Shown one piece after another: positions 22,576-27,199 of a stretch of 64,000 nucleotides of DNA. The DNA is from Candidatus Eiseniibacteriota bacterium (lineage in GTDB: Bacteria > Eisenbacteria > RBG-16-71-46), in assembly GCA_036505355.1 (NCBI GenBank), contig DASXTP010000085.1:1463-65462 (forward strand), in the 5' to 3' direction. The notes under the pieces were generated by a model that had not been told where the DNA came from, did no database searches, and saw only the letters and a program-made list of their open reading frames with translations. Numbering within the stretch: the stretch's first letter is position 1; every line of letters begins with the position of its first letter. The position numbers were made by a program, and so were the translations under genes.

Positions 22576-22590
22576 TGGCACGGAGCGTGC
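22576..22590 (+). promoter_or_regulatory. candidate sigma-54 promoter upstream of the nuoEF-like/formate dehydrogenase operon
   Basis: TGGCACG-GAGC-GTGCC matches the TGGCACG-N4-TTGCW consensus, with exact GG-N10-GC spacing. It lies about 105 nt upstream of the GTG at 22697, in the divergent region next to the NtrC-type two-component genes. Confidence 0.55.
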
Positions 22591-22696
22591 CGTCTGCCAC
22601 AAGGTCGAATCGGAACCCACGGAGTTCGCCGTTCCAGACTCCCGGGTCGCCGCGGACCGAGAGAGGAGTTTCACCATCCCGGAGACAACCGCTAGC

Positions 22697-24247
22697 GTGT
22701 TTGCCGTGGAAAGCAATCCTTTGGGCCGCCCTCGCCTGCTCGAGTGGGCGCACCGCCGCGCGGCCCACCCTACCGAGGGCAGCGCGGTCGACGACTTGCT
22801 GCAAGGCAAGAGCGACACGGCGATCGCCGAGGGGCGCGGCCTGCCGCGCGCCACGGTGGTCGGGATCCGCAGTTTCTACGACCAGGTCGAGCCGATCCCG
22901 CGGGTTTGCGACGGCACCGCCTGCCACTTCTCCGGAAGCACCGCGCTTCGCGAGCGGCTGACCACCATCGGGCCGGTGGGCGGCGTGCGCTGCCTGGGCC
23001 ATTGCTACGCCGCCCCGGCGTTCCGGAGCGGCGACCGGGTCTTCGCGCGGCCGCGGCGCGCGACGGTCGAATCGTGGCTCGCCGAGTGGGGCGAGGGGCC
23101 GGAGCCGCTCGAGGACCTCGTGCCGGTCCATCGGGAGAGCCTCGCCGAGGAGCCGGTGGTGTTCCGCCACCTGGTGCGCGGCGCGCCCCCGGCCGATTTC
23201 GCCGACTACGACCTGCCGGCGGGCGAGGCGGTGCTCGCGGCGCTCGAGGCGGCACGGCTGCGCGGCCGCGGCGGCGCCGCCTATCCCACGGCCGCCAAGT
23301 GGAAGGCGGCCCGCGACACCCCCGCGCCGGAGCGCTGGGTGGTGGCCAACGGCGACGAGGGAGATCCCGGCTCGTACGTGGACCGCCTGCTGCTCGAGGA
23401 GGACCCCCAAGCGATCCTCGCCGGCATGCTGGCCTGCGGCCGCGCGATCGGCGCCCGGCGGGGCGTAGTCTACATCCGCGCCGAATACCCGCGCGCCCAG
23501 GCCTCGATGCGCGAGGCGATCGGAGCCGCCCGACAGGCCGGCCACCTGGGCAAGCCGTTCGACGTCGAGGTGATTTCGGGCGCGGGCTCCTACGTGTGCG
23601 GCGAGGAGACGGCGCTGCTCCGCTCGATCGAGGGGCTGCGCGGCGAGCCGCGTCCCAAGCCCCCGTTCCCGGCCCAGGCGGGGCTGTTCGGCTTGCCCAC
23701 CGTGGTGCAGAACGTCGAGACGCTCTCGATCGTGCCGTGGATCGCCCGCACCGGCCGTGGCAGCGGCACCAAGGCGGTCAGCGTCTCGGGCGCGGTGCGG
23801 CGGCCGGGGGCCTTCGAGGTCTCGCTCGGGATCCCGTTGCGCCGCGTGCTGGAAGAAGGCGCGGGCGGCGCCCCGGCCGGACGGCGCTGGACGATGGCGC
23901 TGGTGGGCGGCCCGATGGGCCGTGTCCTCCCCGAGCGCTGGTTCGATCGGCCGCTTTCCTACGAGGCGCTGCCCGGGATGGGACACGCTGGCGTCGTGGT
24001 GCTGGACGAGACCGTGTCGCCGCGCGCCCTGGCCGAGCACCTGTTCGCGTTCGCCCGCGCCGAGTCGTGCGGAACCTGCACACCGTGCCGCGTGGGGACT
24101 GCCCAGCTGGCGGCGCTTCGTGACCGCTCGGGACTCGGCCGGCTCCTGGACACGCTCGAGATGGGCAGCCTGTGCGGCTTCGGCCAGGGCGTGCCGCGGC
24201 CGATCCGTGATCTGCTCGAGCACTTCGGGGACGCGGTGCTGCCATGA
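22697..24247 (+). CDS. NADH-dehydrogenase-like flavoprotein subunit (fused NuoE-like + NuoF-like; formate dehydrogenase beta-type subunit)
   Basis: 516 aa. The N-terminal part is NuoE-like and thioredoxin-like, with CDGTACHF...CLGHC. It is followed by NuoF signatures: RGRGGAAYPTAAKW, NGDEGDPGSYVDR, GAGSYVCGEETALL and the 4Fe-4S motif ESCGTCTPCR...LCGFG. Confidence 0.88.
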   Translation: MFAVESNPLGRPRLLEWAHRRAAHPTEGSAVDDLLQGKSDTAIAEGRGLPRATVVGIRSFYDQVEPIPRVCDGTACHFSGSTALRERLTTIGPVGGVRCLGHCYAAPAFRSGDRVFARPRRATVESWLAEWGEGPEPLEDLVPVHRESLAEEPVVFRHLVRGAPPADFADYDLPAGEAVLAALEAARLRGRGGAAYPTAAKWKAARDTPAPERWVVANGDEGDPGSYVDRLLLEEDPQAILAGMLACGRAIGARRGVVYIRAEYPRAQASMREAIGAARQAGHLGKPFDVEVISGAGSYVCGEETALLRSIEGLRGEPRPKPPFPAQAGLFGLPTVVQNVETLSIVPWIARTGRGSGTKAVSVSGAVRRPGAFEVSLGIPLRRVLEEGAGGAPAGRRWTMALVGGPMGRVLPERWFDRPLSYEALPGMGHAGVVVLDETVSPRALAEHLFAFARAESCGTCTPCRVGTAQLAALRDRSGLGRLLDTLEMGSLCGFGQGVPRPIRDLLEHFGDAVLP

Positions 24248-26886: not shown

Positions 26887-27184
26887 GACGGAACGAGGCA
26901 CCCGCCGAGGTGGAGACGGAGGACCTAGCCCAGGAAAACGGGGAAGACGTCTTCGTCCACTTCAAGATCTGGCCGACGGCGACCCGGTGGGTTCGACGTC
27001 ACCCGCGGCCCCGGGGCGCTCTGGGCGTCCCTGCGGCCCACCTCGCCGCAGACGAGCCCATGCCATTGTGGCAGGCGACACTCCGTGTCCGAGCCAGCCT
27101 GGGTTTGCTGTGCGAATCACCACGGCCTTCGCAATCGTTTGGCCGCCTGCCCCTTGCGCCCGCAGCGCCGCCCGCTACCATGCC

Positions 27185-27199
27185 TGGCACGATCGCTGC
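27185..27199 (+). promoter_or_regulatory. candidate sigma-54 promoter upstream of the Cyc2-like gene
   Basis: TGGCACG-ATCG-CTGCC has exact GG-N10-GC spacing and follows the same TGGCACG-N4-NTGCC pattern as 22576-22590. It ends 43 nt upstream of the ATG at 27242. Confidence 0.6.

What the first reader, a model, noticed from the sequence alone, without database searches (positions are those of the whole stretch)
22576..27199. Two near-identical sigma-54 promoters tie the formate dehydrogenase operon and the Cyc2-like gene to the NtrC-type regulator
TGGCACG-GAGC-GTGCC lies at 22576-22590, about 105 nt upstream of the nuoEF-like/fdhA operon. TGGCACG-ATCG-CTGCC lies at 27185-27199, 43 nt upstream of the Cyc2-like ATG. 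Both match the -24/-12 consensus TGGCACG-N4-TTGCW with exact GG-N10-GC spacing. A weaker third match (GGGCATG-TCGG-TTGCAA, minus strand, 19717-19733) precedes the receiver-like gene. The only enhancer-binding protein nearby is the NtrC-type regulator at 19877-21232, so a local regulon is the simplest reading.

Two palindromes could be upstream activator sites: TGCCA-ttg-TGGCA (27061-27073) and TGCC-N9-GGCA (22441-22457). Their spacing differs, so I do not claim a shared operator. I scanned the 176 nt between the nucleotidyltransferase stop and the mtrA start and found no comparable sigma-54 element.
Basis: seen in the sequence. Interest (0 to 1): 0.6.

Follow-up and report, generated by a model that had tools for sequence, protein, structure and literature searches.

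The report
Sigma-54 regulon with shared enhancer site
The two promoter-like sequences look like real sigma-54 promoters that share a palindromic activator site about 120 bases upstream, tying formate dehydrogenase, a Cyc2-like iron-oxidase-type gene and several neighbours to the adjacent two-component regulator; the mechanism is ordinary, but the regulon is newly defined for an uncultured phylum.

Summary
Both sites are present: TGGCACGGAGCGTGCC at 22576-22591 and TGGCACGATCGCTGCC at 27185-27200. Both are intergenic and correctly oriented. The genome, a 3.03-Mb MAG that an earlier scan note calls Ca. Eisenbacteria, has rpoN and 16 full-length enhancer-binding proteins (EBPs).

The motif alone is only moderate evidence. 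Strict matches number 14 against about 13 expected. PWM hits of at least 13 bits in promoter-like positions number 22, against 3-10 for wrong-spacer controls.

Both promoters share a 5-3-5 palindrome, TGNCA-N3-TGNCA (22445-22457 and 27061-27073), centred 125 and 118 nt upstream.

The same pairing of palindrome and promoter precedes four more promoters in the window:
- the receiver-like gene
- the ADP-forming acetyl-CoA synthetase (ACS) gene
- a membrane-protein gene
- a GNAT-USP operon

It also precedes cytochrome and multicopper-oxidase loci on other contigs. That gives 11 promoters, against 0-2 in controls.

In 22 loci from other genera that carry the orthologous EBP (68-82% identity), 21 carry the pairing, against 0-4 loci in controls. 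Most often it sits directly after the EBP gene. The fdh promoter and its palindrome are conserved only in the two genera where the kinase-EBP pair neighbours fdh.

This is a new member of a known kind. There is no transcript or binding evidence.

The parts
22576..22591 (+). Sigma-54 promoter of the nuoEF-fdhA operon (TGGCACGGAGCGTGCC). Predicted transcription start is about 22602, giving a leader of about 95 nt.
   Evidence: 13.1 bits; non-coding; gene downstream. TGGCACG and TGCC are conserved in G010, at the same distance from nuoEF, and in G022, while the spacer varies.
22444..22458 (.). Candidate enhancer (UAS) palindrome CTGACA-tat-TGGCAG. It is centred 125 nt upstream of the fdh promoter and 47-61 nt upstream of the kinase start.
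   Evidence: This is the second conserved island in the window/G010 alignment. Orthologous sites are L064 8839-8853 and L067 10254-10268.
27185..27200 (+). Sigma-54 promoter of the Cyc2-like gene (TGGCACGATCGCTGCC). Predicted start is about 27211. A GGAGG Shine-Dalgarno sequence lies at 27230-27234 and the ATG at 27242.
   Evidence: 13.1 bits; non-coding; gene downstream.
27060..27074 (.). Candidate UAS palindrome ATGCCA-ttg-TGGCAG, centred 118 nt upstream of the Cyc2-like promoter.
   Evidence: It is one of only 12 exact TGNCA-N3-TGNCA sites in the genome.
19718..19733 (-). Sigma-54 promoter (GGGCATGTCGGTTGCA) of the receiver-like gene at 18969-19448.
   Evidence: The equivalent promoter follows the EBP orthologue in most of the 22 other genera.
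19820..19834 (.). UAS-like palindrome CTGTCg-cgc-TGTCAG (one mismatch), 94 nt upstream of the 19733 promoter and just after the EBP stop codon.
19877..21232 (-). NtrC-family EBP with REC, AAA+ sigma-54 interaction and Fis-type HTH domains. Asp54 and a GAYTGA loop are present.
   Evidence: No close paralogue in the genome (next best 45% identity). Orthologues at 68-82% identity occur in 25 related genomes.
21225..22397 (-). PAS histidine kinase, the presumed cognate sensor. An earlier scan note reads it as soluble; I did not check that.
   Evidence: Synteny with the EBP is kept in most orthologous loci.
22697..26886 (+). The nuoE/F-fusion gene and fdhA (formate dehydrogenase), the target operon of site 1.
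   Evidence: FdhA passes the TIGR01591 cut-off.
27242..28519 (+). Cyc2-like gene with an N-terminal CXXCH motif and a 425-aa product; the target of site 2.
   Evidence: no Pfam hit. Only distant homologues exist in relatives.
30931..30946 (-). Sigma-54 promoter (TGGCGTCCGCCTTGCA, 11.3 bits) of the ADP-forming acetyl-CoA synthetase gene at 28642-30870.
   Evidence: It is 112 nt from the shared UAS.
31051..31065 (.). UAS palindrome CTGACA-gac-TGGCAT, shared by the divergent promoters at 30946(-) and 31166(+). A second, one-mismatch site lies at 31031-31043.
31166..31181 (+). Sigma-54 promoter (TGGCACATGGGCTGCG, 12.8 bits) of a 165-aa membrane-protein gene at 31290-31787.
11750..11765 (+). Sigma-54 promoter (TGGCATGGCGATTGCG, 15.6 bits) of a GNAT gene (11828-12481) and a USP gene (12478-12957). 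A UAS-like site, CTGTCg-ggc-TGTCAG, lies at 11623-11637, 120 nt upstream.
   Evidence: USP genes with the same pairing occur in G011, G024 and G007.
13685..13700 (+). Weak candidate sigma-54 promoter (CGGCACGGACCATGCG, about 8.4 bits by hand calculation). It lies upstream of the nucleotidyltransferase gene (13745-14668), which is followed by mtrA, mtrB and a dihaem cytochrome gene. Two one-mismatch UAS-like sites lie at 13526-13538 and 13544-13556.
   Evidence: Tentative.

Best explanation
Both sites are genuine sigma-54 (-24/-12) promoters belonging to one regulon.

Proposed mechanism (inferred from the established mechanism of NtrC-family activators):
- The PAS histidine kinase (21225-22397) phosphorylates Asp54 of the NtrC-family EBP (19877-21232).
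- The EBP binds a dyad site, consensus cCTGaCA-N3-TGgCAGg, centred about 95-135 nt upstream of each promoter.
- It contacts promoter-bound sigma-54 holoenzyme by DNA looping and uses ATP to open the promoter.

Targets in this window:
- nuoEF-fdhA
- the Cyc2-like gene
- the receiver-like gene next to the EBP
- the ADP-forming acetyl-CoA synthetase gene and a divergent membrane-protein gene, which share one UAS
- a GNAT-USP operon
- possibly the nucleotidyltransferase-mtrAB unit

Targets on other contigs:
- an NHL-repeat plus multihaem-cytochrome cluster
- a cytochrome b plus multihaem c cluster
- a multicopper-oxidase gene and a divergent FG-GAP-repeat gene

What is shown: the motifs, their positions, their statistical coupling, and their conservation alongside the EBP orthologue. 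What is inferred: binding, phosphorylation, sigma-54 dependence, and the signal. The signal is unknown. A cytoplasmic redox or energy cue is a guess from the target genes and from an earlier scan note that the kinase has a Cys-rich PAS region and no membrane segment; I did not verify either feature.
For: Machinery. rpoN is present. The EBP has a complete REC, AAA+ and HTH architecture with a GAYTGA loop and Asp54.

Promoter positions. High-scoring PWM hits are overwhelmingly intergenic and correctly oriented. At 13 bits or more, 22 hits are in promoter-like positions, against 3-10 for wrong-spacer controls.

Palindrome-promoter coupling in this genome. There are only 12 exact TGNCA-N3-TGNCA sites genome-wide, and they serve 6 promoters at 100-125 nt. 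Allowing one mismatch gives 11 promoters, against 0-2 for wrong-spacer or wrong-distance controls.

Conservation of the fdh control region. In the window/G010 alignment the only conserved islands are the -24/-12 elements and the palindrome. G022 has TGGCACGCGAAGTGCC 120 nt from CTGTCAGGCTGTCAG. Of the five genera whose fdh lacks the kinase-EBP neighbour, three have no sigma-54 hit upstream of fdh. The other two have only differently placed hits: one on the opposite strand at -296 and one at -695.

Coupling across genera. In 61 relatives the composite pattern gives 55 matches, against 11 for the reversed control and 7 for an accidentally mis-spaced pattern. Genomes with the EBP orthologue hold 38 matches in 26 genomes. 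Genomes without it hold 17 in 35. In 22 orthologous EBP loci, 21 carry the pairing (29 promoters), against 0-4 promoters in controls. It usually sits immediately downstream of the EBP gene.

Specificity. The EBP has no close paralogue, and its HTH differs from the other 15 EBPs.
Against: - There are no transcript, 5'-end or binding data.
- The strict motif is not over-represented genome-wide (14 observed, about 13 expected). At 13 bits the false-positive rate from the motif alone is roughly a quarter.
- Both sites have C rather than A/T at -11 and lack the T at -15.
- The Cyc2-like gene has no close orthologue, so its promoter cannot be checked by conservation. Among the roughly 29 distant homologues fetched from relatives, two have a strong sigma-54 site upstream. 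One of those (G028) has recognisable UAS-like sites; in the other the half-sites are spaced differently.
- Some genomes without a detected EBP orthologue still have composite matches (G014 and G027, 3 each). Either the orthologue was missed or another EBP recognises a similar site.
- The UAS-to-promoter distance varies from 94 to 138 nt, with no fixed helical phase.
- My PWM weights were approximated from the published consensus, not taken from a table.
Confidence: 0.72

Rival explanations
1. The promoters are real sigma-54 promoters, but the palindrome is bound by a different EBP (one of the other 15) or by a non-EBP factor. The adjacent EBP would then be a neighbour by coincidence.
For: The genome has 16 full-length EBPs. 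Composite matches occur in some genomes where no orthologue passed E<=1e-150. No binding data exist.
Against: The pairing sits directly beside the EBP orthologue in 21 of 22 loci from different genera. Six good promoters and one weak one, out of about 11 regulon promoters, lie on the EBP's own contig within about 11 kb of it. The other EBPs are at most 45% identical and have different HTH helices. The fdh promoter is present only where the kinase-EBP pair is adjacent.
Confidence: 0.13
2. One or both sites are chance -24/-12 look-alikes in GC-rich intergenic DNA, and the genes are transcribed from other promoters, for example sigma-70-type ones.
For: Strict matches are at the number expected from base composition. 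Wrong-spacer PWMs still give 3-10 promoter-like hits at 13 bits or more. The -11 and -15 positions are non-consensus.
Against: The -24/-12 elements are conserved, with a variable spacer, in two other genera for fdh. Both sites have the rare palindrome at the regulon-typical distance. The expected number of such coincidences is about 0.04 for exact sites. No sigma-70-like promoter was found in 22300-28800, though that scan may not suit this phylum.
Confidence: 0.08
3. Site 1 is a perfect GGCACG-gag-CGTGCC inverted repeat. It could therefore act as an operator for another regulator, or as a bidirectional sigma-54 promoter that also drives the divergent kinase-EBP operon (positive autoregulation).
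For: The minus-strand reading scores 8.3 bits. The -11 C makes TGCC the complement of GGCA, so some dyad symmetry persists in G022 (GGCAC-N5-GTGCC).
Against: The 6/6 palindrome is not kept in G010 (GGCACG / CCTGCC). What is conserved is the plus-strand TGGCACG-N4-NTGCC. For a minus-strand promoter the palindromic UAS would lie downstream of the start, which is atypical.
Confidence: 0.05

Closest known systems
NtrB/NtrC-type two-component control of sigma-54 promoters (enteric glnAp2; NtrC dyad sites upstream)
   Same: It has a kinase plus a REC-AAA+-Fis-HTH activator, -24/-12 promoters, and dyad enhancer sites about 100-140 bp upstream. A site beside the regulator's own operon is also shared.
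   Different: The half-site sequence differs (TGNCA). The targets are redox, energy and stress genes rather than nitrogen assimilation genes. The EBP falls below the NCBIfam NtrC equivalog cut-off (414 vs 558.6 bits).
AtoS/AtoC of E. coli (best NCBIfam hits for both proteins)
   Same: Highest-scoring named models: AtoC 458 bits and AtoS 253 bits. An acyl-CoA/acetate enzyme (ADP-forming ACS) is a conserved neighbour and target.
   Different: Both scores are far below the equivalog cut-offs (714 and 646 bits). There is no ato operon, and the target set is different.
RpoN regulon of Geobacter sulfurreducens (Leang et al. 2009, PMC2725144)
   Same: The formate dehydrogenase operon (fdnG, GSU0777-0781) has a sigma-54 promoter confirmed by primer extension. 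Cytochromes for extracellular electron transfer are reported as part of the regulon.
   Different: It is a different phylum. The formate dehydrogenase there is membrane-bound FdnGHI, not a NuoEF-linked FdhA. That paper assigns no shared enhancer motif or single EBP to these targets, and Cyc2 is not involved.
FhlA-dependent sigma-54 control of fdhF/hyc in E. coli
   Same: It is a sigma-54 promoter in front of a formate dehydrogenase, with an upstream activator site (from established knowledge).
   Different: FhlA is a formate-binding, GAF-domain EBP without a receiver domain. Here the activator is a phosphorylated response regulator. The FhlA model scores 263 bits against a cut-off of 830.

Membership tests
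Sigma-54 (RpoN) -24/-12 promoter | GG and GC dinucleotides separated by exactly 10 nt within a TGGCAC-N5-TTGC-like context | tested here: met
   Both sites read TGGCACG-N4-NTGCC and score 13.1 bits on an approximate PWM. They deviate from consensus at -15 and -11.
Sigma-54 (RpoN) -24/-12 promoter | The organism encodes sigma-54 | tested here: met
   Sigma54_DBD scores 214 bits in a 534-aa open frame on contig C47.
Sigma-54 (RpoN) -24/-12 promoter | Intergenic position, oriented towards a gene start within a few hundred nt | tested here: met
   The site lies 105 nt before nuoEF and 41 nt before the Cyc2-like ATG.
Sigma-54 (RpoN) -24/-12 promoter | Transcription start about 12 nt downstream of the GC element, and dependence on RpoN | not testable with these tools
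Bacterial enhancer-binding protein (NtrC-class response regulator) | REC domain, AAA+ sigma-54 interaction domain with a GAFTGA-type loop, and a C-terminal Fis-type HTH | tested here: met
   Response_reg 98 bits, Sigma54_activat 232 bits, HTH_8 55 bits; the sequence shows GHEKGAYTGA and Asp54 in the context LLDVRLPD.
Bacterial enhancer-binding protein (NtrC-class response regulator) | Cognate histidine kinase encoded alongside | tested here: met
   PAS, HisKA and HATPase_c domains, overlapping the EBP start. The pairing is conserved in orthologous loci.
EBP upstream activator sequence (enhancer) | Dyad-symmetric site about 80-150 bp upstream of the -24 element, recurring at the regulator's targets | tested here: met
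   11 promoters in the genome against 0-2 in controls; 29 promoters in 21 of 22 orthologous loci against 0-4 promoters in controls.
EBP upstream activator sequence (enhancer) | Physical binding by the cognate EBP and requirement for activation | not testable with these tools
   This needs EMSA or footprinting and reporter assays.
AtoC / AtoS equivalogs | Score above the NCBIfam equivalog cut-off | tested here: not met
   AtoC 458.5 vs 714 bits; AtoS 252.9 vs 646 bits.

The most novel reading that the evidence does not exclude
This kinase-EBP pair, conserved across the family to which this MAG belongs, could be a master switch for an energy or redox-stress programme. Its core targets across genera are the receiver-like protein, Hsp20, USP, ADP-forming ACS, transhydrogenase, and a subunit resembling the gamma subunit of pyruvate/2-oxoacid:ferredoxin oxidoreductase. 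In this lineage the regulon has recruited the hardware for extracellular electron exchange: a Cyc2-like haem-porin, possibly MtrAB, an NHL plus multihaem cluster, a cytochrome b plus multihaem c complex, and a multicopper oxidase. It has also recruited a NAD-linked formate dehydrogenase. That would be the first regulator proposed for a Cyc2-type gene. It would also give a single testable handle on when uncultured Eisenbacteria exchange electrons with minerals.
Probability: 0.35. Interest if true: 0.6.

Novelty: new member of a known kind. Interest (0 to 1): 0.45.

Why it matters
The mechanism is textbook: a two-component EBP acting on sigma-54 promoters. The value lies in the content.

- It gives a concrete operator, cCTGaCA-N3-TGgCAGg placed about 95-135 nt upstream of the -24 element. 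It also gives a target list for a regulator conserved across about 25 related genomes of an uncultured phylum.
- It places a Cyc2-like cytochrome-porin, other cytochrome modules and a formate dehydrogenase under one predicted switch.
- My literature search found no paper that holds both 'Eisenbacteria' and 'sigma-54'. A second search on Cyc2, RpoN, enhancer-binding protein and extracellular electron transfer listed no paper among its 15 top hits that holds both Cyc2 and RpoN.
- The prediction can be tested in E. coli with cloned parts, without cultivating the organism.

Tried and rejected
- Home-made gene caller. It mis-stranded or dropped genes in this 69% GC genome. I replaced it with a sliding six-frame codon-usage track, which reproduces the Pfam-supported layout.
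- Composite pattern with the wrong internal spacing. I used N7 instead of N6. It gave 0 hits in the window's own genome and 7 in 61 genomes. I kept it as an accidental negative control and repeated the search correctly.
- Conservation of the Cyc2-like promoter. This cannot be tested, because the best homologues in 60 relatives are 23-44% identical over partial alignments, and the same-genus genome lacks the gene.
- Riboswitch or other known RNA in the leaders. Rfam found no match at gathering threshold in 10000-33000.
- Terminator between fdhA and the Cyc2-like promoter. No terminator-like site was found there, and the fold of 26880-27060 is no better than shuffles (z = 0.32).
- Sigma-70-type promoters in 22300-28800. 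None were found, though that consensus may not apply to this phylum.
- The hit at C166:4693, which has UAS-like sites, lies inside a coding region. I rejected it as a regulon member.
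Full report
**1. The observation**

Both sites are in the sequence. TGGCACGGAGCGTGCC lies at 22576-22591, and TGGCACGATCGCTGCC lies at 27185-27200. Each has exact GG-N10-GC spacing.

Pfam confirms the gene layout:
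- NtrC-type EBP, 19877-21232 (-)
- PAS histidine kinase, 21225-22397 (-)
- NuoE/F fusion, 22697-24247 (+)
- FdhA, 24244-26886 (+); it passes the TIGR01591 equivalog cut-off
- an ORF at 27242-28519 with an N-terminal CXXCH motif and no Pfam hit, the 'Cyc2-like' gene

The window is C85:1463-65462 of a 3.03-Mb MAG that is 69% GC and 77% complete. The MAG has one rpoN and 16 full-length EBP genes, of which only this one is on the contig. An earlier scan note assigns the genome to Candidatus Eisenbacteria. I did not test that assignment.

**2. Is it more than chance?**

Sequence alone is not significant. TGGCACG-N4-NTGC occurs 14 times on both strands, against about 13 expected from base composition.

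Position is informative. I built an approximate -24/-12 PWM, with my own weights derived from the published consensus mrNrYTGGCACG-N4-TTGCWNNw. I paired it with a six-frame codon-usage track that reproduces the Pfam-supported layout.
- The top-scoring hits are overwhelmingly in non-coding DNA with a gene downstream.
- At 13 bits or more there are 59 hits. Forty are non-coding, and 22 are non-coding with a gene downstream.
- Five control PWMs with the wrong spacer give 3-10 in that last class.

So the organism has a real sigma-54 regulon. A 13.1-bit intergenic hit taken alone is right roughly three times in four.

**3. The shared enhancer**

I aligned the kinase/nuoEF intergenic region with the orthologous region of genus G010. 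Two conserved islands stand out against a diverged background.
- The first is CTCTCGTGGCACGG..C.TGCCG, the -24/-12 elements, at the same distance from nuoEF (-120/-121).
- The second is CTGNCA-N3-TGGCAG, at window 22444-22458.

Re-registered, both are TGNCA-N3-TGNCA.

Exact matches to this palindrome number only 12 in the genome. Five of these sites lie 100-125 nt upstream of sigma-54 hits and serve six promoters:
- fdh (distance 125 nt)
- the Cyc2-like gene (118 nt)
- one site at 31052-31064, shared by divergent promoters at 30946(-) and 31166(+) (112 and 108 nt)
- C35:15227(-)
- C124:8347(-)

Allowing one mismatch adds more:
- the promoter at 11750(+), 15.6 bits, distance 120 nt
- a divergent promoter pair on C50

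In total, 11 promoters have a palindrome (exact or one mismatch) at 90-135 nt. Wrong-spacer PWMs and wrong-distance windows give 0-2, and never an exact palindrome.

**4. Link to the adjacent EBP**

Synteny around fdh. Orthologues of the NuoEF gene at 61-81% identity exist in eight genera.
- Two of them, G010 and G022, have the divergent kinase-EBP pair next to fdh, with the EBP 78-80% identical. Only those two have a correctly placed sigma-54 promoter and palindrome. In G022 it is TGGCACGCGAAGTGCC, 120 nt from CTGTCAGGCTGTCAG. There the promoter first drives an inserted hsp20 gene and then nuoEF-fdhA.
- One further genus (G005) has too short a contig to show the neighbourhood.
- Of the remaining five genera, three have no sigma-54 hit upstream of fdh. 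One has an opposite-strand hit at -296, and one has a hit at -695 that probably belongs to another gene.

Distribution of the EBP. Orthologues at 68-82% identity occur in 25 of 60 related genomes.

Composite pattern across relatives. TGNCA-N3-TGNCA-N(90-120)-GGCRY-N6-TGC gives 55 matches in 61 genomes. The reversed control gives 11, and my accidentally mis-spaced pattern gives 7.
- 38 matches fall in the 26 genomes with the orthologue.
- 17 fall in the 35 genomes without it.

Orthologous EBP loci. I fetched 22 such loci from other genera, 236.5 kb in total.
- 29 sigma-54 sites have the palindrome 85-145 nt upstream, in 21 of 22 loci.
- Wrong-spacer controls give 0-4.
- The commonest layout is kinase, EBP, palindrome, sigma-54 promoter, receiver-like gene. 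That is the arrangement at 19718-19834 in the window.

Paralogues. The EBP has no close paralogue in its own genome (next best 45% identity), and its HTH helix is distinct from the others.

Together these results make this EBP by far the best candidate for the factor that binds the palindrome.

**5. Targets**

In the window:
- nuoEF-fdhA
- the Cyc2-like gene
- the receiver-like gene 18969-19448 (weak Response_reg similarity, below the cut-off)
- ADP-forming acetyl-CoA synthetase, 28642-30870
- a 165-aa membrane protein, 31290-31787
- GNAT-USP, 11828-12957

A weak candidate promoter, CGGCACGGACCATGCG, lies at 13685-13700 and scores about 8.4 bits. Two one-mismatch palindromes lie 135-153 nt upstream of it. 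It precedes the nucleotidyltransferase gene, which is followed by mtrA, mtrB and a dihaem cytochrome gene. This is tentative.

Elsewhere in the genome:
- an NHL-repeat lipoprotein, two multihaem cytochromes and an unknown 560-aa protein (C35)
- a small protein with a Tat-signal-like N-terminus, two cytochromes b and two multihaem cytochromes c (C124)
- a multicopper oxidase, divergent from an FG-GAP-repeat protein (C50)

In other genera, the exact composite pattern precedes the following. Apart from hsp20 and the receiver-like gene, I named these from reading the translations and did not scan them against a library.
- hsp20 (four genera)
- the receiver-like gene
- USP
- an NHL-repeat protein
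- a PntA-like transhydrogenase subunit (two genera)
- a subunit resembling the gamma subunit of pyruvate/2-oxoacid:ferredoxin oxidoreductase (two genera)
- glutamate dehydrogenase (two genera)

In G011, ACS follows a USP gene behind one such promoter.

The core of the regulon looks like an energy, redox or stress programme. The electron-transfer modules look like lineage-specific recruits. The Cyc2-like gene sits where G010 and G022 have an unrelated 376-406-aa membrane-protein gene.

**6. Mechanism**

I infer the standard NtrC-class mechanism. The kinase phosphorylates Asp54. The EBP assembles at the dyad, loops to promoter-bound sigma-54 holoenzyme, and uses ATP to drive open-complex formation.

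The palindrome at 22444-22458 lies only 47-61 nt from the kinase start. It may therefore also autoregulate the kinase-EBP operon. This is an inference only.

The signal is unknown. I did not check that note.

Site 1 is also a perfect GGCACG-gag-CGTGCC inverted repeat. That symmetry is not kept in G010, so I read the plus-strand promoter as the functional element.

**7. Comparison with known systems**

This works like NtrBC-type control and belongs to the NtrC class of EBPs. The best named models are AtoC and AtoS, but both score far below their equivalog cut-offs, so I do not file it there.

Sigma-54 control of a formate dehydrogenase has precedent in Geobacter sulfurreducens, where the fdnG promoter was confirmed by primer extension. 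Cytochromes for extracellular electron transfer are reported in the RpoN regulon in the same paper (PMC2725144). There is also precedent in E. coli FhlA/fdhF, from established knowledge.

No paper in the library holds both 'Eisenbacteria' and 'sigma-54'. A search on Cyc2, RpoN, enhancer-binding protein and extracellular electron transfer listed no paper among its 15 top hits that holds both Cyc2 and RpoN.

**8. Limits**

- The PWM weights are approximate.
- Gene boundaries outside the Pfam-checked genes come from a simple codon-usage track.
- The Cyc2-like promoter rests on architecture, not on conservation.

**9. Verdict**

This is a new member of a known kind. It is of moderate interest, because it supplies a testable operator and regulon for an uncultured phylum and a first candidate regulator for a Cyc2-type gene.

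Noticed in passing
L067 (G022) 9585-10141, minus strand: In G022 the conserved sigma-54 promoter first drives an inserted hsp20 (alpha-crystallin) gene and then nuoEF-fdhA. The exact palindrome-promoter pattern also precedes hsp20 in G012, G015 and G026.
   Followed up: partly
window 19449-19717, minus strand: An unusually long untranslated stretch of about 270 nt lies between the 19733 promoter and the receiver-like ORF start. It could be up to about 350 nt if the poorly conserved N-terminus is not translated. Rfam finds no match, and the ORF 19547-19855(-) has no Pfam hit.
   Followed up: partly
window 26887-28641 compared with L064 3264-4394 and L067 3787-5007: The Cyc2-like gene occupies the slot between fdhA and the ACS gene. 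In G010 and G022 that slot holds an unrelated 376-406-aa multi-pass membrane-protein gene, so the slot looks like a gene replacement.
   Followed up: partly
genome contig C50:14617(-) and 14849(+): Divergent sigma-54-like promoters share one central one-mismatch palindrome. One leads to a 705-aa secreted multicopper oxidase and the other to a 578-aa FG-GAP/VCBS-repeat protein.
   Followed up: partly
L071 (genome contig C124) 2522-8347, minus strand: The operon behind a regulon promoter contains a small protein with a Tat-signal-like N-terminus (no Pfam hit), two cytochrome b genes and two large multihaem cytochrome c genes. It resembles a quinol-to-periplasm electron module.
   Followed up: partly
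genome contig C47:32962-32981: A 15.3-bit sigma-54 PWM hit (TGGTACATGACATGCT) overlaps a TGTCA-gca-TGTCA palindrome instead of lying about 100 nt from it. This is unexplained.
   Followed up: no
window 22493-22506: An AT-rich tract (CCCATTTAATAAGG) lies midway between the palindrome and the fdh promoter in a 69% GC genome. It could be a bending or IHF-type site, but it is not conserved in G010.
   Followed up: partly
window 31862-32521, minus strand: A Crp/Fnr-family regulator gene lies immediately after the regulon's membrane-protein gene and before the nos cluster noted by earlier readers.
   Followed up: no
L007 (G028) about 1082-1260, and L024 (G031) 1362-1377: Two distant Cyc2-like homologues in other genera have strong sigma-54 sites upstream (16.2 and 15.6 bits). 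The G028 homologue has two degenerate palindromes at about 92 and 115 nt. The G031 homologue has TGTCA half-sites spaced N7 rather than N3.
   Followed up: partly
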